Shown here in pieces: positions 2,301-62,476 of a DNA stretch of 64,000 bases (position 1 is its first letter; every line of letters begins with the position of its first letter). The notes below the pieces were generated by a model. That model did no database searches. It was not told the DNA's origin and saw only the letters and a program-made list of their open reading frames with translations. Source of the stretch: a virus; the IMG/VR virus record IMGVR_UViG_3300027301_000003, positions 10,423-74,422 of that record, one strand, 5' to 3'. A program made the position numbers and the translations under genes.

Positions 2301-3179
2301 TTATGCTCCTTTTAAATTCTCAAGAATTAATCTGCGTTGTTGATCGCTCATACCTAACCAAGCATCTTTATTTATATTACTCACGATCAGGCGAGGTACA
2401 TCATACCACATCTCTGGTAGAGTATTTGCAATTTCAAAGCCGTTTTTGTACATCAATTCTACATTCTTTGCTTGCATACGCATTAGCTTCTTTTTACCAA
2501 TGTAGTAATCGGTCTTTAGTTTACAGCAGTTATTGTAATCATAAGTACCATCAGCTTGCATAGGATAAAGCATAAAGCCTTCACCACGATCTGACTTTGC
2601 GATTTCTAATGCTTGCTCTAATGTACAACGAATGGCTTCACCAAATGGAGTAAAATCACCAGTGTCTTTATTACGAGAACCTAAGAAATGCAAACCTTGG
2701 CGTTCTTGCACAATATGAGGGTCTTGTGGTAATACAACTTCAAATAAACAACTATATTGGTCATCAATCACAATATTATATAAATCATTATAATCATTCG
2801 AGATCAATTCCTTAGCCCACATAGCGTAATCACTTGTAGTAGTACCTGTAGTACTAACCAAGAGTTCACCATCATGCAGAGTAGCACAAGCCATGAAACC
2901 ATTGACTTTCTTGTACATTTCAACTGGAGTATCCAAAGGAACATCTTTCCAGTAATTGCGCTCAAGGTAATTGAAGCTTTTACGTGGAGCAGCTTGTACG
3001 AGTTCTTTCGTAGCGTTTGAATACACATGACCTCTGCACTCTAGCAGATCAGTTATTTGATACCAGAGATATTCATACATGGCTTTACGAGCGTACTTGA
3101 ACGTAGTGTACTTACCATCGTTTTTCAGAGTAGCAAGACCACGCATTACTAAATTGATTTGTTGATCATAGTTTAACAT
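2301..3179 (-). CDS. T4 Rnl1-like RNA ligase
   Basis: ECRG, KSFNYLE, KxNG motif I (KVNG), FE, EGF, KLKT; adjacent to a kinase gene. Confidence 0.8.
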   Translation of the reverse strand: MLNYDQQINLVMRGLATLKNDGKYTTFKYARKAMYEYLWYQITDLLECRGHVYSNATKELVQAAPRKSFNYLERNYWKDVPLDTPVEMYKKVNGFMACATLHDGELLVSTTGTTTSDYAMWAKELISNDYNDLYNIVIDDQYSCLFEVVLPQDPHIVQERQGLHFLGSRNKDTGDFTPFGEAIRCTLEQALEIAKSDRGEGFMLYPMQADGTYDYNNCCKLKTDYYIGKKKLMRMQAKNVELMYKNGFEIANTLPEMWYDVPRLIVSNINKDAWLGMSDQQRRLILENLKGA

Positions 3180-3190
3180 TATTTACTCCT

Positions 3191-3589
3191 TTACAGTCGT
3201 ACACTGAATTTCCTTTTCATCTGTTCGACTTTAGCATCAGGACAACCGTGAACGTTCTTACCACCGTGACGATTCTCAACAATGATACTCACGAAGTTAG
3301 CTTCAGTATCTCGTGCAATTGTAGCATAAGTTTCCACTTCCCACTCAGCGCAAGATGTATTTGATACTGCAACTGACATTCCTTCGTACAAAGCTAACCA
3401 TGTATTGCGCTTGCATTGCTGATGAGCATCTTCTAGTTTTGTAGGATCAAACTGATATACACCCGCTTCTGTAAAATAGTCATCAGCTTCATACATGCGT
3501 TGTACTAAGCGATTTTTGAATAGTTGCCAAGCAAAAGATGACTTACCACTTCCGGGTACGCCACGTATTAGATACAAAGTAGGTTTCAT
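3191..3589 (-). CDS. P-loop kinase (AAA_33 / polynucleotide-kinase-like)
   Basis: LIRGVPGSGKS Walker A, EADDYF, VSNT, NVHGCP. Confidence 0.85.
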   Translation of the reverse strand: MKPTLYLIRGVPGSGKSSFAWQLFKNRLVQRMYEADDYFTEAGVYQFDPTKLEDAHQQCKRNTWLALYEGMSVAVSNTSCAEWEVETYATIARDTEANFVSIIVENRHGGKNVHGCPDAKVEQMKRKFSVRL

Positions 3590-3795
3590 TTTATCCACCA
3601 ATGTAAAAGACCAAACAAATAGATAGCTGCAGAAGCAGCTTCCACTAAAATCAAAGCTTTATCTTTGTAGTTAAAGCCCACGATACACCAGAGTATACCA
3701 CCAATTGCACCAAAGATTAGATTCAATGGAAAAATATTTAATGCAGTTAGCAGCATACCGATCATATAGAAGATTGTACCGGACCATCTAAGCAT
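3586..3795 (-). CDS. Small membrane protein
   Basis: 69 aa with 2-3 hydrophobic segments. Confidence 0.7.
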   Translation of the reverse strand: MLRWSGTIFYMIGMLLTALNIFPLNLIFGAIGGILWCIVGFNYKDKALILVEAASAAIYLFGLLHWWIK

Positions 3796-10609: not shown

Positions 10610-12802
10610 ATGGATTTGACAAGAGACTGGATTTATGACATTGAAACGTACAAGTCAGCTTTTACGTTCGCTGTTGTTCGTGCAGACGGTAAACACGCAC
10701 GAGTATTTGAGGTTTCCAGCCGTACTAATGAGCTAGAGCGCATCTATGCTTGCGTTGACCATATTGAAGCCTCTACTGGTCGTTTGGTGGGTTTCAACAA
10801 CGTAGGATTCGACTATCCTATCTTGCATGAAGTTCTTTTGAATCGCAGTCGTTGGTTGGCTAAATCAGGTAAGCAAGTTGCTGCTGATGTACACAAGCTT
10901 GCACAAAAGCAGATTGACTCCTTCAAGGATAATGGTTTCGGTAATAGCATTAAGACTGAAGAGCAAATTGTTCCTCAAGTTGACCTCTATCGTATCCATC
11001 ACTTCAATAACAAAGCACGAGCCACTGGTCTAAAGATGCTGGAATTCAACATGCGTATGGATAACATCGAAGACTTACCTTATGCTGTGGATGCAGAACT
11101 AACCGCAGAAGAAATTGACAAACTTAAAAGCTATAACATGCATGATGTGCGCTGTACTCTTGCGTTTTACTTGAAGTCCATTGCTCAGATTGAATTCAGG
11201 GATAACTTGAGTATCAAACTTGGTCGTGACTTTACCAATGCTGACGATACAAAAATTGGTGCTGAGTTCTTTCAGATGAAGCTTGAGGAATCAGGTGTAA
11301 AGCTGCATAAGTTCAAAGACGGTAAGAAAGTCATGATGCAAACCAAGAGAGACAAGATCGCTATTAAAGACTGTCTGTTTGGTTATTACAAGTTTGATCG
11401 TCCAGAGTTTCAAGCAGTTTATGATTGGTTTTCTAAGCAGATCATCACTGAGACTAAAGGCGTGTTCTCAGATATTGAAGAGCACAATCTTGGTGAAGTT
11501 GCTAAGTACGCAAACCTTACTCTAAAGCGCAAGAAGTTCAAAGGTGCTCCAACTGAACGAGAAGTTGATGATTTCAAGAATGAACATCCAATGGGTTGGA
11601 TCGAAGTAGAAGAGCTTAAGGCTACTGAATATCTGTTTGATGCCAATGGTGAACATGTGCTTGAATACATACTGGATGCTGATGGTTGTCCAGACCTTGC
11701 AAAGAAGCGCAAGAAGGTCCGTGTAGCGAAGAAATCCTATTGGGGTTGCTACCGTATTGCTGAGACTCTAAATGTCCTTGTAGATGGCTATAGGATTGAT
11801 TTTGGAGTAGGTGGTGTACATGCATCTCTATCTGAGAAGGTTGCTAGTGCAGGTAAGCTGTACATGCTAAGGGACGCTGACGTAAGTTCAATGTATCCTA
11901 ACATTGCTATTTCAAATAAGATTTATCCTGAGCATCTTGGTGCAGAGTTCTGTGCAATTTATCAAGACATGTATGAGCAGCGTAAATCCTATGCAAAGAA
12001 TACACCTGAGAATGCAATGCTTAAACTTGCACTCAACGGTACATACGGTAAGAGCAATGATAAATACTCTGTGTTCTATGATCCAAAGTTTACAATGTCG
12101 ATTACCATCAACGGTCAATTGTCTTTGCTAATGCTTGCTGATCGTTTACTGCAGATTCCAAAGCTAAAGTTAGTCCAACTAAATACAGACGGTTTGACTG
12201 TAGCTATGACACGAGATACTGAAGAGCAGTACAATGCAATCTGTTTGCAATGGCAAAAGGATGTAAAGCTTGACTTGGAATTCGTAGATTATCAGAACAT
12301 GTATATTCGTGATGTGAATAACTACATTGCTTTGTACACAAATGGTAAGGTAAAGCGCAAAGGTGCTTATCAGTACGAAGATTTAGGTTGGCATCAAAAC
12401 CAAGGTGGTCTAGTGATTCCAATGGCTGCTGAAGCTGCTATGTTGCATGGTAAGGATGTACGAGAGTTCATTCAGGAAAGACTTGATCAAGGTCATATCT
12501 TTGATTTCATGCTGCGTACAAAAGTCCCTCGCAGTTCTAAACTTGTGCTAGAATTTGAAGATGGTCGTGTAGAGCAACAGCAGAACATCTGTAGATACTA
12601 CCCTTGTAAAACTGGTGGTAAACTAATGAAGTTGATGCCAGCACTACCAGATAGCGAAGACAAGAGCGATAGAAGAATGGGTATTGACACATCTTGGAAT
12701 GTAAAGACCTGCAATAACATCGCTGATTTCGGTTATGATGTAGACTTGGATTACTATGTAAGTGAAGCTGAGAAGCTAGTTATCAGAAAGGACAAAGCAT
12801 GA
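10610..12802 (+). CDS. DNA polymerase, family-B-like, with 3'-5' exonuclease
   Basis: DIETY, GFNNVGFD and YNMHD exonuclease motifs; DVSSMYP, KLALNGTYGK and NTDG polymerase motifs. Confidence 0.9.
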   Translation: MDLTRDWIYDIETYKSAFTFAVVRADGKHARVFEVSSRTNELERIYACVDHIEASTGRLVGFNNVGFDYPILHEVLLNRSRWLAKSGKQVAADVHKLAQKQIDSFKDNGFGNSIKTEEQIVPQVDLYRIHHFNNKARATGLKMLEFNMRMDNIEDLPYAVDAELTAEEIDKLKSYNMHDVRCTLAFYLKSIAQIEFRDNLSIKLGRDFTNADDTKIGAEFFQMKLEESGVKLHKFKDGKKVMMQTKRDKIAIKDCLFGYYKFDRPEFQAVYDWFSKQIITETKGVFSDIEEHNLGEVAKYANLTLKRKKFKGAPTEREVDDFKNEHPMGWIEVEELKATEYLFDANGEHVLEYILDADGCPDLAKKRKKVRVAKKSYWGCYRIAETLNVLVDGYRIDFGVGGVHASLSEKVASAGKLYMLRDADVSSMYPNIAISNKIYPEHLGAEFCAIYQDMYEQRKSYAKNTPENAMLKLALNGTYGKSNDKYSVFYDPKFTMSITINGQLSLLMLADRLLQIPKLKLVQLNTDGLTVAMTRDTEEQYNAICLQWQKDVKLDLEFVDYQNMYIRDVNNYIALYTNGKVKRKGAYQYEDLGWHQNQGGLVIPMAAEAAMLHGKDVREFIQERLDQGHIFDFMLRTKVPRSSKLVLEFEDGRVEQQQNICRYYPCKTGGKLMKLMPALPDSEDKSDRRMGIDTSWNVKTCNNIADFGYDVDLDYYVSEAEKLVIRKDKA

Positions 12803-13174: not shown

Positions 13175-13347
13175 AGTACAAATACGAGTATAATAAAGAG
13201 TACCAGACGTTACAGCAGTTTGATGCAAACGGTGTGCTACGATCTAGCATGAGTATGCCAAAGAGTGATCTGAACTTGATTGCTCAGTTGAACATCAAAG
13301 AAAATATTTTGCGAAGTGTTGACTTGGAGTTGAAAACTGATGTATAA
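13171..13347 (+). CDS. Small hypothetical protein (not in ORF track)
   Basis: 58 aa MKYKYEYNKE...KTDV with ATGA overlap. Confidence 0.55.
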   Translation: MKYKYEYNKEYQTLQQFDANGVLRSSMSMPKSDLNLIAQLNIKENILRSVDLELKTDV

Positions 13348-13348
13348 T
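13319..13348 (+). promoter_or_regulatory. Sigma70-type promoter for the tRNA-Arg/ncRNA/NTase island
   Basis: TTGACT-18nt-TATAAT, about 11 nt upstream of the tRNA. Confidence 0.65.
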
Positions 13349-13359
13349 TGAGATATCAA

Positions 13360-13434
13360 ACGGCTATAGTATAATGGACAATGCAACAGGCTTCTACCCT
13401 GTGAATGGTGGTTCGATTCCATCTAGTCGTACCA
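13360..13434 (+). tRNA. tRNA-Arg(TCT)
   Basis: Acceptor ACGGCTA/TAGTCGT, anticodon arm ACAGG-CTTCTAC-CCTGT, T arm GGTTCGATTCC, encoded CCA. Confidence 0.92.
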
Positions 13435-13440
13435 AATTTA

Positions 13441-13612
13441 GTCCCGATCCTCTGCAGAGTTTCAAATCCCTAGAAACAATGCACGATGCGAGGTAGGTGA
13501 AAGCCCTATCACTAAAATGCAAGTACTGATGGCGTGGTACTGCAGGATTTCCAAGGCCAAAGGGTTGTCGCCCGGATGTAACAAGACACTATAATACCTA
13601 TTTAGGGATAGG
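13441..13612 (+). ncRNA. Candidate structured RNA A of unknown family
   Basis: Non-coding; helices TGCA.GTTTC/GAAAC.TGCA, GTAGG-TGAAAGC-CCTAT, AGTAC/GTACT, GATCCT/AGGATT, ACCTAT/ATAGGT. Confidence 0.55.
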
Positions 13613-13736
13613 TGGTTATAGTTCAGTATATTTCAGGTTGGGTAGACGAACGTGGTTTACTATTTGGGGTATCGAATCGTTCTGTGGTGGAATGAGGGGG
13701 CATACCTAAGATACGGAATATACTGAACTATAACTA
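13613..13736 (+). ncRNA. Candidate structured RNA B closed by an 18-22 bp stem
   Basis: Perfect inverted repeat 13615-13632 / 13717-13734 enclosing GU-containing hairpins. Confidence 0.6.
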
Positions 13737-13745
13737 AGGAGTAAT

Positions 13746-14564
13746 ATGAAAAACCTACTGATTGGTTCTCGTGCATTAGAGTACTGGAGTGCAGACTTCA
13801 AGTGCAAACCCAATGCTGATTGGGATATTATTAGTTTGCATGGAATTGAAGATGCAACTAAGCGCATTGAATGGCACGATTTCAATAAACTAGGTAACTA
13901 CGATATTGAACGGTATGCTTCTGAGCAGTCTTTTGATATATTAGGTCAGCGTGTGCACATCGTTAATCCAATTGGTCTTACGATTATCAAACGCAGTCAC
14001 CTGTGGCGTGATCTAAGCTTTCAAAAGCACATTACGCACTATCATAAGCATCTTGCAAAGTATCGCAGTATGTTTACAGCATTTGATGAACGTGTTCTGG
14101 AAAAGCGCATAGCTTATACAATGGAAGCTTACCCACAAGGTCATCCTAGTTTGAAGAAATCCGTAGAAGACTTCTTTGATGACTACGTTGAGAAGAAATA
14201 CAATCATGATTATTTGCATGAACTTGTTGCATATCACGACAAACCGTTGTATACTCAGCTTCAACGCAATGCAAGTAGTGCGTGGTGTGACGAAGACTTG
14301 TGGGATAAGCTATCAAACGATGATAAAATCAAGTGCGTAGCTGAAGAAGCACAGGTCATTGCAATCGAGCGTTTTCTTGTACCAAGCAACTGGAACTATG
14401 CACCACGACATGCGTACTTAAAAGCACTTGATAAAGTATGCACTACATTGTGCAGTGGTTGGTTTAGAGATTTTGCGATAGATAATTATCCTGAAATCTT
14501 TAATTTATGTGATACAATGAAGTTTGACAACATCAGAAAGGAACTAGAACATGGCACGAACTAA
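13746..14564 (+). CDS. Pol-beta-superfamily nucleotidyltransferase-like protein
   Basis: N-terminal IGSRAL...DWD (GS..DxD) signature; His/aromatic-rich helical C-terminal part (HDYLHE, CTTLCSGWFR). Confidence 0.65.
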   Translation: MKNLLIGSRALEYWSADFKCKPNADWDIISLHGIEDATKRIEWHDFNKLGNYDIERYASEQSFDILGQRVHIVNPIGLTIIKRSHLWRDLSFQKHITHYHKHLAKYRSMFTAFDERVLEKRIAYTMEAYPQGHPSLKKSVEDFFDDYVEKKYNHDYLHELVAYHDKPLYTQLQRNASSAWCDEDLWDKLSNDDKIKCVAEEAQVIAIERFLVPSNWNYAPRHAYLKALDKVCTTLCSGWFRDFAIDNYPEIFNLCDTMKFDNIRKELEHGTN

Positions 14565-15045
14565 AGTAGCGGAGCTAACAGTAGAGCAGCAGATTGCTCA
14601 AATTCAAAAAGAAGCTGCAGAGAAAATTAAGCAACTTCAAACGGCATTACCTTGGAATAAACGTTTCAAAAATGCGTTTGATAAATATCTTATTGGTAAT
14701 AGACCTGATATTGCCAAGTACATGACTGGTTATGAACCAGAAAGTAGCATTCAACATGATATCAATGATCACTTACGTGATGTCAATCTAAGTATTAAAT
14801 ACGATTCATCAACTTTTGATAATTCATTGTACAATCAAAGTGTAATTAACAATCTTGTTGATCAATACGACTTGACTGAATATCCAGTGTATACTATCTT
14901 TGCTGTACTTGAAGGTAAAAATATTGTTGGTTATGTTAAGATTAACTGCCAATATTCATCGTATAATGGTAATGAGTACAGTAACTTTTGTTTTGTAAAA
15001 CCACAAGAAATTACTTGTACAGTATTTAATGCTTATAACCCTTGA
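14551..15045 (+). CDS. Hypothetical protein, paralog of the downstream gene
   Basis: C-terminus YSSYNGNEYSNFCFVKPQEITCTVF aligns with the next gene. Confidence 0.75.
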   Translation: MARTKVAELTVEQQIAQIQKEAAEKIKQLQTALPWNKRFKNAFDKYLIGNRPDIAKYMTGYEPESSIQHDINDHLRDVNLSIKYDSSTFDNSLYNQSVINNLVDQYDLTEYPVYTIFAVLEGKNIVGYVKINCQYSSYNGNEYSNFCFVKPQEITCTVFNAYNP

Positions 15046-15056
15046 AAGGAAATAAC

Positions 15057-15404
15057 ATGCTTAATGATAAAGTTGTAGCTTTGCTTGCAGAAGCTGATAA
15101 TAGTGTACTCACAGATTTCTTCAATTGTGAATTTCAAGTTAAACCTTGGGATTGGGACTCAGAAGAAATCATAGAATTTCGTAATGTACTTTTAAATGCA
15201 GGTATTGCTTTTGAAGAAGTAGATCGTTACGGCGGTGAAGATCAAGGTTCTGATTACTGGTCTGTGTATTCATTCAGTGATGGTATGCAAGTTGTATTCA
15301 TTAAATTCCAAGGTTGGTACGCTTCATACGAAGGTTCCACCTATGAGGAATTTTTTGAGGTAACTCCTGTAGAGAAAACCATCACTGTATTTGAAAAGAA
15401 ATAA
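15057..15404 (+). CDS. Conserved phage hypothetical protein
   Basis: GGEDQGSDYW...GWYASYEG...VTPVEKTITVF; AAGGA RBS before ATG at 15057. Confidence 0.8.
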   Translation: MLNDKVVALLAEADNSVLTDFFNCEFQVKPWDWDSEEIIEFRNVLLNAGIAFEEVDRYGGEDQGSDYWSVYSFSDGMQVVFIKFQGWYASYEGSTYEEFFEVTPVEKTITVFEKK

Positions 15405-15407
15405 AGC

Positions 15408-15450
15408 ATCATAAATGATATCTAATGTTATCTTAGGTATTGTTTATGAT
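15408..15450 (+). other. Long hairpin, possible RNase III processing site upstream of tRNAs
   Basis: ATCATAAATGATATCTAA-loop-TTAGGTATTGTTTATGAT, 18 bp with GU pairs. Confidence 0.55.
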
Positions 15451-15456
15451 ACATAA

Positions 15457-15531
15457 GGGTCAGTAGCTTAAAGGTGAAGCCCTCGACTCATAATCGAGAT
15501 AGTGCTGGTTCAAGTCCAGTCTGACCCACCA
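15457..15531 (+). tRNA. tRNA with CAT anticodon (Ile2 or elongator Met)
   Basis: GGGTCAG/CTGACCC acceptor, CTCGA-CTCATAA-TCGAG, GGTTCAAGTCC, CCA. Confidence 0.9.
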
Positions 15532-15534
15532 AAT

Positions 15535-15625
15535 GGACATGATGTGTCAATTACCTGATGCTGGTATGAAACTTCCTAATAGCATAGGAGGGAGAAGCGG
15601 GTTAGATTCCCGTTGTTGTCCACCA
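15535..15625 (+). ncRNA. tRNA-like RNA lacking a canonical anticodon loop
   Basis: GGACA/TGTCC-A-CCA end, T arm GCGGG-TTAGATT-CCCGT, 7 bp stem CTTCCTA/TAGGAGG with 6 nt loop. Confidence 0.7.
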
Positions 15626-15645: not shown

Positions 15646-15674
15646 TTGACAAAGCATTTGCAGTTTGCTATAAT
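15646..15674 (+). promoter_or_regulatory. Consensus sigma70 promoter upstream of ssb
   Basis: TTGACA-17nt-TATAAT with TG extension. Confidence 0.85.
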
Positions 15675-15736: not shown

Positions 15737-16381
15737 ATGCAAAAACTAACAGGTATGCTTCTCTATGTTCAACTAAATAAGCCAGCAAAAGCTTATGTCA
15801 AGGCAGGAGAGCCAGTGAAACCAGATGAATGGAAAGCTTCAGTAGCTATTACAGATGAAGATGTAGTAGATGAGTACGAAGAGTTTGCCAAAGGTATTGA
15901 TGCCAAAACATCCATCAAGAAAGTAAAGACCACTGAATTTGAAGGTATCTACAAAGTAGCACCTCCAGAAGATGCAGGTAAGAACATTTGGGTGGTAACT
16001 CTACGCAAGTCAACTCAGCTAGGTAAAACTGGCAAAGAAGTACCTGATTTGTACAAGCCAAAAGTCTTTGAGAAAGTCGGTAAAGCACTAGTTGATGTTA
16101 CCAACAGCAAACTACCTGCGAATGGTTCTTACGGTTCAATCAGTATTGACAAGTTTGAGCGCACCAATGGTACAGCATCATTGTATCTAAAGAACGTACT
16201 AGTCACTTCAATGATTGAATACGTTGCTGAATCAGGTCCAGAATATGAACCCGGAAGCGAATTCGATGATGAGCCTAAAGCAGAAGCTGCACCAGCACCA
16301 AAAGCTAAAGCAGAAGTTAAACCCAAAGCTCGTGCTAAGGTTGAAGTTGCTGTTGAAGACGAAGATGAAATCCCGTTCTGA
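15737..16381 (+). CDS. Single-stranded DNA-binding protein (T7 gp2.5-like)
   Basis: NGS motif, acidic tail ending EDEDEIPF, position in the replication block. Confidence 0.75.
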   Translation: MQKLTGMLLYVQLNKPAKAYVKAGEPVKPDEWKASVAITDEDVVDEYEEFAKGIDAKTSIKKVKTTEFEGIYKVAPPEDAGKNIWVVTLRKSTQLGKTGKEVPDLYKPKVFEKVGKALVDVTNSKLPANGSYGSISIDKFERTNGTASLYLKNVLVTSMIEYVAESGPEYEPGSEFDDEPKAEAAPAPKAKAEVKPKARAKVEVAVEDEDEIPF

Positions 16382-16873: not shown

Positions 16874-17857
16874 ATGAGTAAAAGACTCTTAATTGTAGAT
16901 GGTGATTTAGTAGCGTACAAACATGCCGCTGCTGCTGAAACTCGATCAGTTATTGCAAAGCATTTAAAGTCAGGTAGAGAAAAAGAGTTCGGTACAAGAA
17001 CAGAATTCAAGAAGTTTTTAGCTGATAAAGAGATTGAGTTTAAACCCGAAGCTTATGAAATCACAGATCATCAACATCCTATGGATATTTCAATTGCTAT
17101 AGGTACTGCAAATAAAAGTATCAGTGCTTTACTTGAAAATACTTGGTGTGATGAACTTGAGATTTATATTGGTGGTGGTCAAACATTTAGGCATAAACTA
17201 CCTTTACCTTCACCGTACAAAGACAATAGGGACCAGTTGATTAAACCAGTGCATTTGACAGCAATTAGAAATCATCTAAGACGCAAGTACAAAGCAAAGG
17301 TTATTGAGAATGGTATGGAAGTGGATGATGTGGTTACAATACGTGCCTATGAATGCCTTCAAAACGGTCAGGAAGCGGTGTTAGCAAGCGTAGATAAGGA
17401 TAGCTATCAGTGTCAAGGAATCCATCTATTTAACTGGACTGATGACAATCCTAAGATTCACCTGATACCAACGATTGGACATTTACGTAAAGTAAAAACT
17501 ACAGTCAAAGGTGATGGTTTAATCTTCTTAGCACTGCAGGTATTATCCGGTGACTTAGCTGATACATATAAACCTTATGAATTATCCAAAGTAAGTTATG
17601 GTCCAATTAAAGCAATGAAAGCTTTAGAAGGTTGCACAACTGAACAGGAGATTTTACGAAAGGTTATTTCGGAGTTTAAACGCCTGTATCCTGAACCTTT
17701 TGATTACACTGATTGTCATGGTGTATTTCATGAAGAAGCTGATTGGTTTGATATGCTGCAGATGTACTGGACTTGTGCCTACATGAAACGCAGTTGGGAT
17801 GACGTTAGCAGCTTTATGCAGTTCGCAATGGAAAGAGGGGTTAATCCTTATGAATGA
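16874..17857 (+). CDS. 5'-3' exonuclease (T7 gp6 / FEN-like)
   Basis: VDGD, YKDNR, EVDD, VDKD, GDLAD motifs. Confidence 0.88.
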   Translation: MSKRLLIVDGDLVAYKHAAAAETRSVIAKHLKSGREKEFGTRTEFKKFLADKEIEFKPEAYEITDHQHPMDISIAIGTANKSISALLENTWCDELEIYIGGGQTFRHKLPLPSPYKDNRDQLIKPVHLTAIRNHLRRKYKAKVIENGMEVDDVVTIRAYECLQNGQEAVLASVDKDSYQCQGIHLFNWTDDNPKIHLIPTIGHLRKVKTTVKGDGLIFLALQVLSGDLADTYKPYELSKVSYGPIKAMKALEGCTTEQEILRKVISEFKRLYPEPFDYTDCHGVFHEEADWFDMLQMYWTCAYMKRSWDDVSSFMQFAMERGVNPYE

Positions 17858-62401: not shown

Positions 62402-62476
62402 TGGTACTACTACGGAGAATCGAACTCCGCTTACCGGGATGAAAACCCGGTGTCCTAACCGATAGACGATAGTAGC
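62402..62476 (-). tRNA. tRNA-Glu(TTC)
   Basis: CCGGG-TTTTCAT-CCCGG anticodon arm, GTTCGATTC T loop, CCA. Confidence 0.93.

What the first reader, a model, noticed from the sequence alone, without database searches (positions are those of the whole stretch)
13319..15625. Candidate new system: ncRNA(s) + nucleotidyltransferase + two paralogous partner proteins in a tRNA-flanked island
Seen: a unit between two sigma70 promoters (13319 and 15646) with the order tRNA-Arg, RNA A, stem-closed RNA B, a GS..DxD protein, two partner ORFs, an 18 bp hairpin, tRNA(CAT) and a tRNA mimic. Established: GS..DxD is the Pol-beta superfamily catalytic signature (CCA enzymes, MNTs, AMPylators, CD-NTases). Inference: the enzyme, its partners and the RNAs form one functional module. 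It could tail or repair tRNA/ncRNA 3' ends, nucleotidylate the Tyr/Ser-rich partners, or make an RNA-dependent nucleotide product for counter-defence. I know of no characterised system with this layout.
Basis: partly seen in the sequence, partly recalled or inferred. Interest (0 to 1): 0.8.

Follow-up and report, generated by a model that had tools for sequence, protein, structure and literature searches.

The report
Phage nucleotidyltransferase–partner cassette in tRNA/sRNA operon
A freshwater phage carries, inside a short operon of two tRNAs and three previously undescribed structured small RNAs, a two-gene cassette of unknown function (a MenT/AbiEii-like nucleotidyltransferase plus a small acidic partner). 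The protein pair is conserved across many phages, but its link to the RNAs holds only in this phage lineage.

Summary
The window is a ~74-kb phage related to Limnohabitans phage DC31.

**The enzyme.** ORF 13746-14564 belongs to Pfam DUF7277+DUF7275, a family of unknown function. G7-S8, D25xD27 and E42 are invariant among close relatives. The GS and DxD positions stay at least 90% conserved in homologs sharing only 27-48% identity. A confident AlphaFold model has only nucleotidyltransferase folds as its ten best structural matches: MenT1/3/4, the AbiEi C-terminal domain, ANT(2''), JHP933 and LnuA, at Z 5-7.4.

**The partner.**
- The two downstream ORFs share one small acidic alpha+beta domain.
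- A partner gene lies directly downstream in 31 of 33 lineages of this clade.
- It is also adjacent in about 12 of 70 distant phages, including a Streptomyces phage.
- One relative encodes both proteins as a single reading frame.

**The RNAs.**
- "RNA B" and the CCA-ended tRNA-like RNA have covariation-supported structures.
- "RNA A" shows a discrete, very abundant ~110-135-nt signal in contigs of four river metatranscriptomes.
- None matches an Rfam family.
- The RNA modules change position between relatives. They and the tRNAs are absent next to distant homologs.

**Verdict.** The conserved unit is the enzyme-partner pair. The RNA linkage is specific to this lineage, and the biochemical function is untested. 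This is a new variant of a known kind.

The parts
13319..13348 (+). Sigma-70-like promoter (TTGACT-18-TATAAT) at the head of the unit. A second 11/12 site lies at 13348-13375.
   Evidence: conserved in DC31.
13360..13434 (+). tRNA-Arg, anticodon TCT, with CCA encoded.
   Evidence: ARAGORN; Rfam tRNA 60.5 bits. Present next to the gene in most clade relatives.
13435..13600 (+). RNA A: a structured non-coding region made of at least two sub-modules. An abundant discrete RNA maps to about 13455-13588.
   Evidence: Conservation, modularity, compensatory pairs and G-U pairs that favour the + strand. Metatranscriptome contigs are 2-40x deeper than the flanks, with adapter sequence abutting at 13455/13469/13474 and 13577-13588. 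No Rfam family.
13601..13745 (+). RNA B: a 21-bp closing stem (13614-13634 with 13714-13734) around two covarying helices and a variable apical hairpin. It ends 11 nt before the start codon, just ahead of the Shine-Dalgarno sequence.
   Evidence: The covariance model R1 finds it once in the window and only in close relatives.
13746..14564 (+). Nucleotidyltransferase-like protein of 272 aa: DUF7277 (N-terminal NTase core) plus DUF7275 (helical domain).
   Evidence: Pfam 200.9 and 27.2 bits. Invariant G7 S8 D25 D27 E42. AF2 model pLDDT 91. All top-10 structural matches have an NTase fold.
14551..15045 (+). Partner paralog 1 (164 aa). Its start overlaps the NTase stop by 14 nt. It is absent in DC31.
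   Evidence: partner HMM E 4e-8.
15057..15404 (+). Partner paralog 2 (115 aa from the ATG at 15057; the longest ORF starts at TTG 15042). It is acidic (pI ~4.05) and folds as three helices plus a four-stranded sheet.
   Evidence: phrog_8206.
15405..15456 (+). Hairpin of 18 pairs, 3 of them G-U. It is lineage-restricted and its role is unknown.
   Evidence: Sequence. Found in 4 related loci besides the window and deleted in DC31.
15457..15531 (+). tRNA with anticodon CAT (elongator Met, or Ile2 if lysidine-modified), with CCA encoded.
   Evidence: Some relatives carry tRNA-Ile(TAT) in the island instead.
15535..15625 (+). tRNA-like RNA: an acceptor-like stem with an ACCA end, a T-arm, a 4-bp stem with an invariant 7-nt loop, and a 7-bp hairpin.
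   Evidence: In some relatives it lies upstream of the gene.
15646..15674 (+). Consensus promoter (12/12 with TG) of the next transcription unit. It marks the downstream border.
   Evidence: High metatranscriptome depth begins just behind it in run X17.

Best explanation
**What it is.** The region is a short phage operon in the replication-gene neighbourhood. It makes two decoder tRNAs (Arg-TCT for AGA; CAT for AUG or AUA), three stable structured RNAs (RNA A, RNA B and a CCA-ended tRNA-like RNA), and a conserved two-gene protein cassette.

**The cassette.**
- The first product is an intact Pol-beta-superfamily nucleotidyltransferase of the MenT/AbiEii/JHP933 structural class.
- It is translationally coupled to one to three copies of a small, very acidic alpha+beta protein.

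**How it most likely works (inferred by analogy with MenT/AbiEii enzymes).** The enzyme probably transfers nucleotides onto RNA 3' ends of the tRNA-acceptor type. The partner probably binds and controls it, as an inhibitor, an antitoxin-like regulator or a specificity factor.

**What is shown.** The fold class, the conserved catalytic motifs, the enzyme-partner linkage, and that the RNAs are real and structured.

**What is inferred.** The substrate, the physical binding of the pair, and any functional tie between the cassette and the neighbouring RNAs. That last tie is lineage-specific and may reflect only co-transcription in an accessory hot spot.
For: **Fold and motifs.**
- Pfam DUF7275 and DUF7277 match.
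- G7, S8, D25, D27 and E42 are invariant in 44 homologs. G7 is invariant and S8/D25/D27 are at least 90% conserved down to 27% identity.
- The model has pLDDT 91.
- The VIA-align top 10 are all NTase folds: MenT1 Z 7.4, AbiEi C-terminal domain 7.3, MenT4 7.1, TglT/MenT3 6.9, ANT(2'') 6.3.
- One relative hits Pfam AbiEii at 1.6e-4.
- MenT3 adds nucleotides to tRNA 3'-CCA ends (PMC7450476).

**Partner linkage.**
- A partner gene lies within 700 nt downstream in 31 of 33 lineages clustered at 80% identity.
- It is adjacent in 12 of 70 distant loci, including contigs of 89-291 kb, and once lies upstream.
- In Streptomyces phage Circinus the ORF directly downstream matches the partner profile (hhalign probability 90.8%).
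- The start and stop codons overlap.
- One relative (L078:2133-3281) encodes both as a single 382-aa frame. It differs from the split form in L082 by a 2-nt insertion.

**The RNAs are real.**
Against: - No activity was tested.
- Structural Z-scores of 5-7.4 are in the range where only the general fold can be trusted. The Pfam AbiEii model does not match the window protein itself.
- The enzyme is not basic overall (pI 6.2), unlike many RNA-binding enzymes.
- Most distant homologs of ~300-330 aa have no detectable partner, so the partner is not universal.
- The fusion is a single observation, on a contig that also carries a second, unfused cassette. A search for longer proteins containing the partner domain found none.
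- The structural neighbours include small-molecule NTases (ANT(2''), LnuA), so an RNA substrate is not favoured by fold alone.
Confidence: 0.42

Rival explanations
1. One integrated RNA-protein system. The co-transcribed tRNA-like RNA, RNA A and/or RNA B are the enzyme's substrates, primers or guides, and the whole island works as a unit, for example in tRNA-type 3'-end tailing or repair, or in counter-defence.
For: - All parts lie between two strong promoters, with no convincing terminator inside.
- Within the clade a tRNA lies within 2 kb in 19 of 26 lineages, even though the order is rearranged: flanking, both upstream or both downstream.
- The gene is usually preceded within ~20 nt by RNA B or by a tRNA.
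- The tRNA-like RNA offers exactly the acceptor/T-arm/ACCA end that MenT-type enzymes use.
- RNA A is very abundant.
Against: - RNA B was found only in the closest relatives.
- The RNA modules shuffle independently of the gene.
- Only 5 of 70 distant loci have a tRNA within 2 kb.
- JS10, mobillu, phiPsa374 and ESCO5 show no annotated tRNA within 4-5 kb and no partner match.
- The island also takes up mobile genes (an HNH ORF in DC31), as expected for an accessory hot spot.
Confidence: 0.18
2. Protein nucleotidylation. The enzyme AMPylates or UMPylates the partner on its invariant Tyr/Ser (Y88, S90 in the YxSYxG motif), as MNT antitoxins AMPylate HEPN toxins or GlnE/GlnD modify tyrosines. (Those comparisons come from my own knowledge of the families.)
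For: - Y88 and S90 are the only invariant residues across 37 partner sequences. A Gly-rich GGEGQG loop is nearly invariant.
- Both residues are kept in the Streptomyces phage partner.
- Adjacency is tight and one fused form exists.
Against: - The partner is not a HEPN domain: it has three helices plus a four-stranded sheet and only weak NTF2-like resemblance, Z at most 5.
- Many homologs lack a partner yet keep the catalytic motifs, so the partner cannot be the universal substrate.
Confidence: 0.12
3. Small-molecule nucleotidyltransferase or signal-handling pair. The enzyme modifies a small molecule (an antibiotic-like compound or an immune-signal nucleotide), and the pocket-forming partner binds the substrate or product.
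For: - The structural neighbours include ANT(2''), LnuA and ANT(4').
- The C-terminal domain carries an invariant His/Asp/Glu set (H85, H154, D155, H158, E200, E201) that could form a ligand or metal site.
- The partner has a curved-sheet, NTF2-like shape typical of ligand binders.
- NAD-salvage NAMPT genes recur near distant homologs in 7 lineages.
Against: - All these resemblances are weak (Z 3.8-6.3).
- No defence or counter-defence model matches (PADLOC).
- The NAMPT proximity may be plain synteny of accessory regions in large phages.
Confidence: 0.12
4. No joint function. The unit is a hyperplastic accessory region in which unrelated cargo (tRNAs, decaying tRNA copies, a selfish two-gene cassette) has accumulated, and the adjacency is inherited synteny.
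For: - In T4-like phages the gene sits in the variable region near e and nudE.
- DC31 has an HNH endonuclease ORF and lacks partner 1 and the hairpin.
- The order of modules varies freely.
Against: - RNA A, RNA B and the tRNA-like RNA are under structural selection rather than decaying, and RNA A is highly expressed.
- The enzyme-partner linkage spans very distant phages.
Confidence: 0.16

Closest known systems
MenT/AbiEii (DUF1814) nucleotidyltransferase toxins with MenA/AbiEi antitoxins
   Same: A bi-lobed NTase with an N-terminal Pol-beta core (GS, DxD) and a helical C-terminal lobe. These are the best structural matches (MenT1 Z 7.4, MenT4 7.1, MenT3 6.9). Both are encoded as two-gene units with a small cognate protein.
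   Different: The Pfam AbiEii model does not match the window protein. Here the partner is encoded downstream, is an acidic alpha+beta protein unrelated to MenA/AbiEi, and occurs in 1-3 copies. The host is a phage of lytic-phage gene content rather than a bacterial defence or TA locus. Neither toxicity nor tRNA modification has been shown.
Pfam DUF7275 / DUF7277 (PHROG 2141, 6944)
   Same: The protein is a clear member (200.9 bits against a cut-off of 27). The family is found in large phages and in giant viruses such as Sylvanvirus and Satyrvirus.
   Different: These families carry no functional annotation, and no paper in the searched library mentions them. The NTase assignment, the partner linkage and the RNA context are not part of the family descriptions.
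MNT-HEPN type VII toxin-antitoxin pairs
   Same: A minimal NTase paired with a small protein that has an invariant tyrosine.
   Different: The partner is not a HEPN domain. The enzyme has a large extra helical domain, and no AMPylation has been shown.
Phage T4 tRNA gene cluster with its co-transcribed stable RNAs (rnaC, rnaD) and small ORFs (my own knowledge, not checked here)
   Same: A phage operon that mixes tRNAs, stable small RNAs of unknown function and small ORFs, all released by processing. Homing-endonuclease genes insert into it.
   Different: The RNAs are unrelated in sequence (no Rfam match). T4's cluster is not known to hold an NTase-partner cassette. In T4-like phages the DUF7275 gene lies in the variable region near e and nudE, with no tRNA annotated within 4 kb.
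Aminoglycoside and lincosamide nucleotidyltransferases (ANT(2''), ANT(4'), LnuA)
   Same: A small NTase core plus a helical substrate-binding domain. Structural matches are Z 5.0-6.3.
   Different: There is no sequence-family match, no resistance context, and those enzymes have no partner protein.

Membership tests
Pol-beta nucleotidyltransferase superfamily | hG[GS] motif followed by the [DE]x[DE] metal-binding pair | tested here: met
   LIGS(7-8) and D25-W-D27. Both are invariant in 44 homologs and at least 90% conserved in 50 homologs at 27-48% identity.
Pol-beta nucleotidyltransferase superfamily | Third catalytic carboxylate on a later strand | tested here: inconclusive
   E42 lies on strand 41-45 and is invariant in the close set. 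It is not listed as invariant in the wider sets, and its position relative to D25/D27 in the model was not measured.
Pol-beta nucleotidyltransferase superfamily | Alpha-beta-alpha-beta-alpha-beta NTase core fold | tested here: met
   The model has pLDDT 91. All ten best VIA-align matches are NTase folds at Z 5.0-7.4 over residues 1 to ~126 or ~246. The Foldseek top hits agree but are weak (E 0.05 or worse).
DUF1814 / AbiEii / MenT | Match to the family profile (Pfam PF08843) | tested here: not met
   The window protein has no match. One of 50 relatives matches at E 1.6e-4.
DUF1814 / AbiEii / MenT | C-terminal motifs III (Lys) and IV (Asp), as defined in PMC7450476 | tested here: inconclusive
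   Candidate residues exist (K82/R83; D146/D155, invariant or nearly so). No residue-level superposition was possible.
DUF1814 / AbiEii / MenT | Nucleotide addition to tRNA 3' ends, and toxicity neutralised by a cognate antitoxin | not testable with these tools
   This needs biochemistry and expression assays.
Pfam DUF7275 + DUF7277 | Score above the curated cut-off | tested here: met
   DUF7275 scores 200.9 bits against 27. DUF7277 scores 27.2 bits against 27, matching only profile positions 2-31 of 87.
CCA-adding enzyme / poly(A) polymerase (class II tRNA NTase) | Match to the PolyA_pol head-domain family | tested here: not met
   No such Pfam or NCBIfam match at E up to 0.1-5.
MNT-HEPN | The partner is an all-helical HEPN domain | tested here: not met
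   The partner model (pLDDT 95) has three helices and a four-stranded sheet.
tRNA (for 15535-15625) | Recognised by tRNA detectors, with a canonical D arm and anticodon arm | tested here: not met
   ARAGORN does not call it. Only tRNA-Sec matches, at 13.1 bits against a cut-off of 47. The candidate loops lack U33 and a purine at position 37.
tRNA-like element (for 15535-15625) | Acceptor stem with NCCA end plus a T-arm with a 7-nt T-loop | tested here: met
   97.7% of cells are paired and the T-arm and stem 2 carry compensatory changes. The covariation score is 0.276, against 0.131 in shuffles and at most 0.106 when slid. The sample is small: 10 distinct sequences falling into a few groups.
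Any Rfam family (RNA A, RNA B) | Covariance-model match | tested here: not met
   Nothing reaches a gathering score. The best chance-level hits have E 1.9-6.9.

The most novel reading that the evidence does not exclude
The nucleotidyltransferase, controlled by its acidic partner, acts on the co-transcribed CCA-ended tRNA-like RNA and/or the abundant RNA A. It might, for example, extend or repair their 3' ends or make an RNA-linked product. The island would then be a phage RNA-protein system that protects or reprograms translation, or counters tRNA-targeting host defences. No such system has been described.
Probability: 0.12. Interest if true: 0.85.

Novelty: new variant of a known kind. Interest (0 to 1): 0.55.

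Why it matters
**The protein family.** DUF7275/DUF7277 is a large family of unknown function: more than 1,300 clusters at 50% identity and 736 phage records. It occurs in T4-like, jumbo and actinobacterial phages and in giant viruses.
- Placing it in the MenT/AbiEii structural class of nucleotidyltransferases, and showing that one subfamily always travels with a small acidic partner, gives a concrete and cheap test. Express the enzyme with and without its partner, then look for RNA 3'-end, protein or small-molecule nucleotidylation.
- If the enzyme acts on tRNA ends, this would be a phage-side counterpart of a bacterial toxin and defence mechanism.

**The RNAs.** Three new structured phage RNAs are defined here, independently of the proteins. 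One is very abundant in river metatranscriptomes, and phage small RNAs are still poorly catalogued.

Tried and rejected
- **Complex prediction** of enzyme plus partner 2 returned "no answer" (score 0.18, mark 0.32). It is not used as evidence either way.
Contexts of distant homologs came from IMG/VR loci and annotated phage records instead.
- **Sequence searches without a functional name.** A profile search of the Protein Data Bank, NCBIfam and PADLOC, and a literature search for the DUF and PF numbers all found nothing. Two further literature searches found nothing on this family in phages.
- **Foldseek against the PDB** gave only weak hits for both models: E 0.05 or worse and 0.013 or worse.
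- **The partner's fold** has no significant match. The best is Z 5.0, with NTF2-like or cystatin-like shapes at Z ~4.
- **Partner profile against ORFs near distant homologs.** hhalign against the ORFs downstream of the homologs in ESCO5, phiPsa374 and JS10 found no relationship. The same holds for DUF7276-containing P0218, for P0147 and P0170, and for the recurrent 220-aa upstream family. P0147's C-terminus has a faint look-alike (probability 1.2%), which I do not count.
- **Search for longer proteins** holding the partner domain found none; this is weak evidence.
- **The protein atlas** gave only unnamed clusters and a 15% DUF6036 lead.
- **Single-sequence folding.** 13455-13588 folds no better than shuffles (z +0.75). 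13435-13745 gives z -2.95, driven mainly by the RNA B stem. The structural claims therefore rest on covariation.
- **A Y-RNA/YrlA-like reading of RNA B** was considered because of its long closing stem. It was dropped: there is no Rfam match, and I did not look for a Ro/Rsr gene.
- **A riboswitch or attenuator reading of RNA B** was rejected as the sole role. In several relatives a tRNA lies between RNA B and the gene, and the Shine-Dalgarno sequence lies outside the stem.
- **RNA B and the tRNAs** showed no raised depth in the metatranscriptome contigs. Contigs cannot show absence, so this is not used.


Full report
**1. Source and layout**

The window is part of a 74,422-bp virus record, about 95% complete. 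Its nearest named relative is Limnohabitans phage DC31, about 85% identical in DNA over this region.

The finding lies between a family-B-type DNA polymerase gene (10610-12802) and a 5'-3' exonuclease gene (16874-17857). It is therefore in the replication and early-gene neighbourhood.

**2.

- The two strongest sigma-70-like sites in the region are at 13319 and 15646. Both are conserved in DC31.
- ARAGORN and Rfam confirm tRNA-Arg(TCT) at 13360-13434 and tRNA(CAT) at 15457-15531.
- Between tRNA-Arg and the first ORF lie 311 non-coding bases.
- The ORFs at 13746-14564, 14551-15045 and 15042/15057-15404 are as described. The last two share a C-terminal domain of about 70 residues.
- The hairpin at 15405-15456 and the CCA-ended element at 15535-15625 are present.

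**3. The enzyme**

*Family and motifs.*
- The 272-aa protein matches Pfam DUF7275 at 200.9 bits and, just at threshold, DUF7277. It also matches PHROGs 2141 and 6944. All are of unknown function.
- The family is large. There are 741 clusters at 90% identity in a word-seeded search, 1,375 representatives at 50% identity and 736 phage records.
- It occurs in T4-like, Acinetobacter, Aeromonas, Pseudomonas, Vibrio, Gordonia and Streptomyces phages, and in giant viruses. It is absent from 14 control bacterial genomes.
- In 44 homologs of 51-90% identity, G7, S8, D25, D27 and E42 are invariant. So are a KRSH motif (82-85), H154-D155, H158, E200-E201 and E208-R209.
- At 27-48% identity G7 is still invariant and S8, D25 and D27 are at least 90% conserved.

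*Structure.*
- An AlphaFold model built on this alignment is confident (pLDDT 91, pTM 0.87).
- A Foldseek-independent scan of 48,161 PDB representatives gave ten best matches that are all nucleotidyltransferase folds:

| Match | Z |
|---|---|
| MenT1 | 7.4 |
| AbiEi C-terminal domain | 7.3 |
| MenT4 | 7.1 |
| TglT/MenT3 | 6.9 |
| ANT(2'') | 6.3 |
| A fungal NTase-like protein | 6.0 |
| JHP933 | 5.5 |
| TM1012 | 5.1 |
| Rv2827c | 5.0 |
| LnuA | 5.0 |

- These Z values are moderate. The uniform fold class and the matching motifs make the NTase assignment sound.
- One relative also hits the Pfam AbiEii model at 1.6e-4, and another hits NTP_transf_2 at 0.012.
- MenT-type enzymes add nucleotides to tRNA 3'-CCA ends (PMC7450476). 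That is the basis of the mechanistic analogy, and it is not proof.

**4. The partner**

*The protein.*
- Partner 2 (115 aa) matches no Pfam family, but it does match phrog_8206.
- Its relatives found by sequence are all at least 57% identical.
- The conserved core reads D.YGGEGQG..YWSVY.F..G.E.VYVKF.GWY.SY.GSEY..F.FV.P.E.T.TVY. Y88 and S90 are the only invariant residues.
- The protein is very acidic: median pI 4.3 and median charge -13.
- Its model (pLDDT 95) has three helices packed on a four-stranded curved sheet. It has no significant structural relative; the best is Z 5.0, with NTF2-like shapes near Z 4.

*Linkage to the enzyme.*
- I scanned 80 IMG/VR loci whose enzyme is 49-94% identical to the window's with a partner HMM.
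- After clustering the enzymes at 80% identity, 31 of the 33 lineages with enough downstream DNA carry a partner gene within 700 nt downstream. They often carry two or three paralogs.
- In a second, much more diverse set of 80 loci (enzymes 26-38% identical to a distant query, contigs up to 597 kb), 12 of 70 loci with full flanks have an adjacent partner. In one of them it lies upstream.
- In Streptomyces phage Circinus the ORF directly downstream matches the partner profile (hhalign probability 90.8%, E 1.2e-6, with Y88 and S90 kept). A second copy lies 2 kb away.
- One contig (L078) encodes enzyme and partner as a single 382-aa frame. Compared with the split arrangement in L082, it has a 2-nt insertion at the overlap of the two genes. 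This is one observation, on a contig that also has an unfused second cassette, so it is supportive and not decisive.
- Most ~300-330-aa homologs, including those of JS10, mobillu, phiPsa374 and ESCO5, have no detectable partner.
- The pair therefore defines a subfamily and not the whole family.

**5. The RNAs**

*RNA B (13601-13745).*
- It aligns across 22 loci. It has a 21-bp closing stem in which the only changes are to G-U pairs, which fits an RNA read from the + strand.
- It also has a 7-bp hairpin and an 8-bp helix, both with compensatory changes, and a variable apical hairpin.
- Formally, 98.1% of cells are paired. Eleven pairs have a change on both sides, and the covariation score is 0.229. 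Shuffles give 0.100 (0/500 reach the observed value) and slid controls give at most 0.059.

*The tRNA-like element (15535-15625).*
- It has an invariant 5-bp acceptor-like stem followed by ACCA.
- It has a T-arm whose stem covaries (CGGG/CCCG, GGAG/CTCC, GAGAG/CTCTC) around a T-loop-like UUNRAUU.
- It has a 4-bp stem that covaries (UACC/GGUA against CAUC/GAUG) under an invariant 7-nt loop, and a 7-bp hairpin.
- It is not a canonical tRNA.

*RNA A (13435-13600).*
- It contains at least four hairpins with compensatory and G-U changes.
- In contigs of four river metatranscriptome runs from four studies, only the interval of about 13451-13588 is covered by short contigs of much higher depth than the long contigs beside it:

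| Run | Short-contig depth | Neighbouring long-contig depth |
|---|---|---|
| X16 | 2,880-3,787 | 88-218 |
| X18 | 1,118-1,303 | 31-37 |
| X17 | ~1,470-1,500 (bin depth) | 106-147 |
| X11 | 150 | 43-76 |

- Illumina adapter sequence abuts directly at 13455, 13469 or 13474 on one side and at 13577-13588 on the other. The same positions recur in different studies.
- This is best explained by an abundant, discrete RNA of about 105-135 nt.
- Several caveats apply. These are contigs and not reads. The strand is inferred from the G-U pairs. No DNA run was laid as a control. Collapse of sequence conserved among co-occurring strains could inflate depth, although the equally conserved tRNA and RNA B segments are not inflated.
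- In run X17 the gene behind the 15646 promoter is also at very high depth, so the signal behaves like transcription.
- No Rfam family matches RNA A or RNA B.

**6. Are the RNAs part of the system?**

*Within the clade.*
- tRNA-Arg(TCT) and/or tRNA(CAT) lie within 2 kb of the gene in 19 of 26 lineages with full flanks, and within 1 kb in 17.
- This holds although the arrangement differs: tRNAs flanking the cassette, both upstream, or both downstream.
- The gene is usually preceded within about 20 nt by RNA B or by a tRNA.

*Arguments against a fixed unit.*
- The RNA B model finds nothing outside the closest relatives.
- RNA A's halves and the tRNA-like RNA occur at different positions in different relatives.
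- In several relatives a tRNA sits between RNA B and the gene.
- DC31 has an HNH endonuclease ORF where the window's tRNA-Arg lies. It also lacks partner 1 and the hairpin.
- In the diverse set only 5 of 70 loci have any tRNA within 2 kb.

The conserved unit is therefore enzyme plus partner. The tRNA and small-RNA company is a property of this phage lineage. It could still be functional there, but comparative data do not require it.

The two tRNAs read AGA and AUG/AUA. Some relatives carry tRNA-Ile(TAT) instead. From general knowledge, this fits ordinary rare-codon supply for an AT-rich phage.

**7. Other context clues (weak)**

- In Streptomyces phage Circinus the cassette lies between genes annotated as RNA ligase, polynucleotide kinase and a second RNA ligase.
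- Across the diverse set, recurrent neighbours are an unknown 220-aa family (14 lineages), NAMPT (7), ClpP (5) and a metallophosphoesterase (5).
- None of these is close or constant enough to name a pathway.

**8. Conclusion**

- The best reading is a MenT/AbiEii-like nucleotidyltransferase with a cognate small acidic partner, embedded in a lineage-specific tRNA and small-RNA operon.
- The RNA 3'-end substrate and the regulatory role of the partner are inferences (confidence about 0.4).
- The rivals are an integrated RNA-protein system, partner nucleotidylation, a small-molecule substrate, and mere co-location. They remain open, and the assays listed under decisive next steps would separate them.
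- First-stage readers of this scan had already noted the same elements in an overlapping window of this genome. Their notes agree with what I found but had not been followed up.

Noticed in passing
window 15737-16381 (+): This 214-aa ORF lies behind the consensus promoter at 15646 and has no Pfam or PHROG match. It ends in an acidic ...EDEDEIPF tail, like the C-terminal tip of bacterial single-stranded-DNA-binding proteins (my own knowledge). It sits at very high depth in metatranscriptome run X17 (1,340-2,440 against ~130 in the flanks).
   Followed up: partly
L001 (Limnohabitans phage DC31) 4670-4954 and flanks: Where the window has tRNA-Arg, DC31 has an HNH-type endonuclease ORF. It is followed by a sequence with a TCT anticodon-like arm, a T-arm and an acceptor end that ARAGORN does not call. 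This may be a disrupted or intron-bearing tRNA-Arg.
   Followed up: no
window 13580-13595 (+): A GACACTATAAT motif, with a -10-like TATAAT, is conserved in most relatives between RNA A and RNA B. The mapped 3' ends of the abundant RNA A (13577-13588) fall just before it. It could be an internal promoter or a processing signal.
   Followed up: no
L078 2133-3281 and 4995-6210: One IMG/VR contig carries two enzyme-partner cassettes, one fused into a single 382-aa frame and one split.
   Followed up: partly
L086 (Streptomyces phage Circinus) 1-10378: The distant homolog and its partner-like ORFs lie between genes annotated RNA ligase, polynucleotide kinase and RNA ligase, which is an RNA-repair neighbourhood.
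   Followed up: no
L159-L238 (diverse IMG/VR loci): Genes that recur within 3.5 kb of distant DUF7275 homologs are an unknown 220-aa family (14 lineages, upstream, same strand; weak phrog_899 match), NAMPT-type phosphoribosyltransferase (7 lineages), ClpP (5) and a metallophosphoesterase (5).
   Followed up: partly
P0206, P0218, P0220, P0232, P0233, P0235, P0258, P0260: Long forms of the family (508-756 aa) carry extra C-terminal regions, DUF7276 in P0218. BFVD matches include proteins of 508 and 571 aa from the giant viruses Sylvanvirus and Satyrvirus. The extra regions have no named relatives.
   Followed up: partly
window 62402-62476 (-): A third tRNA, Glu(TTC), lies far from the island on the opposite strand.
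   Followed up: no
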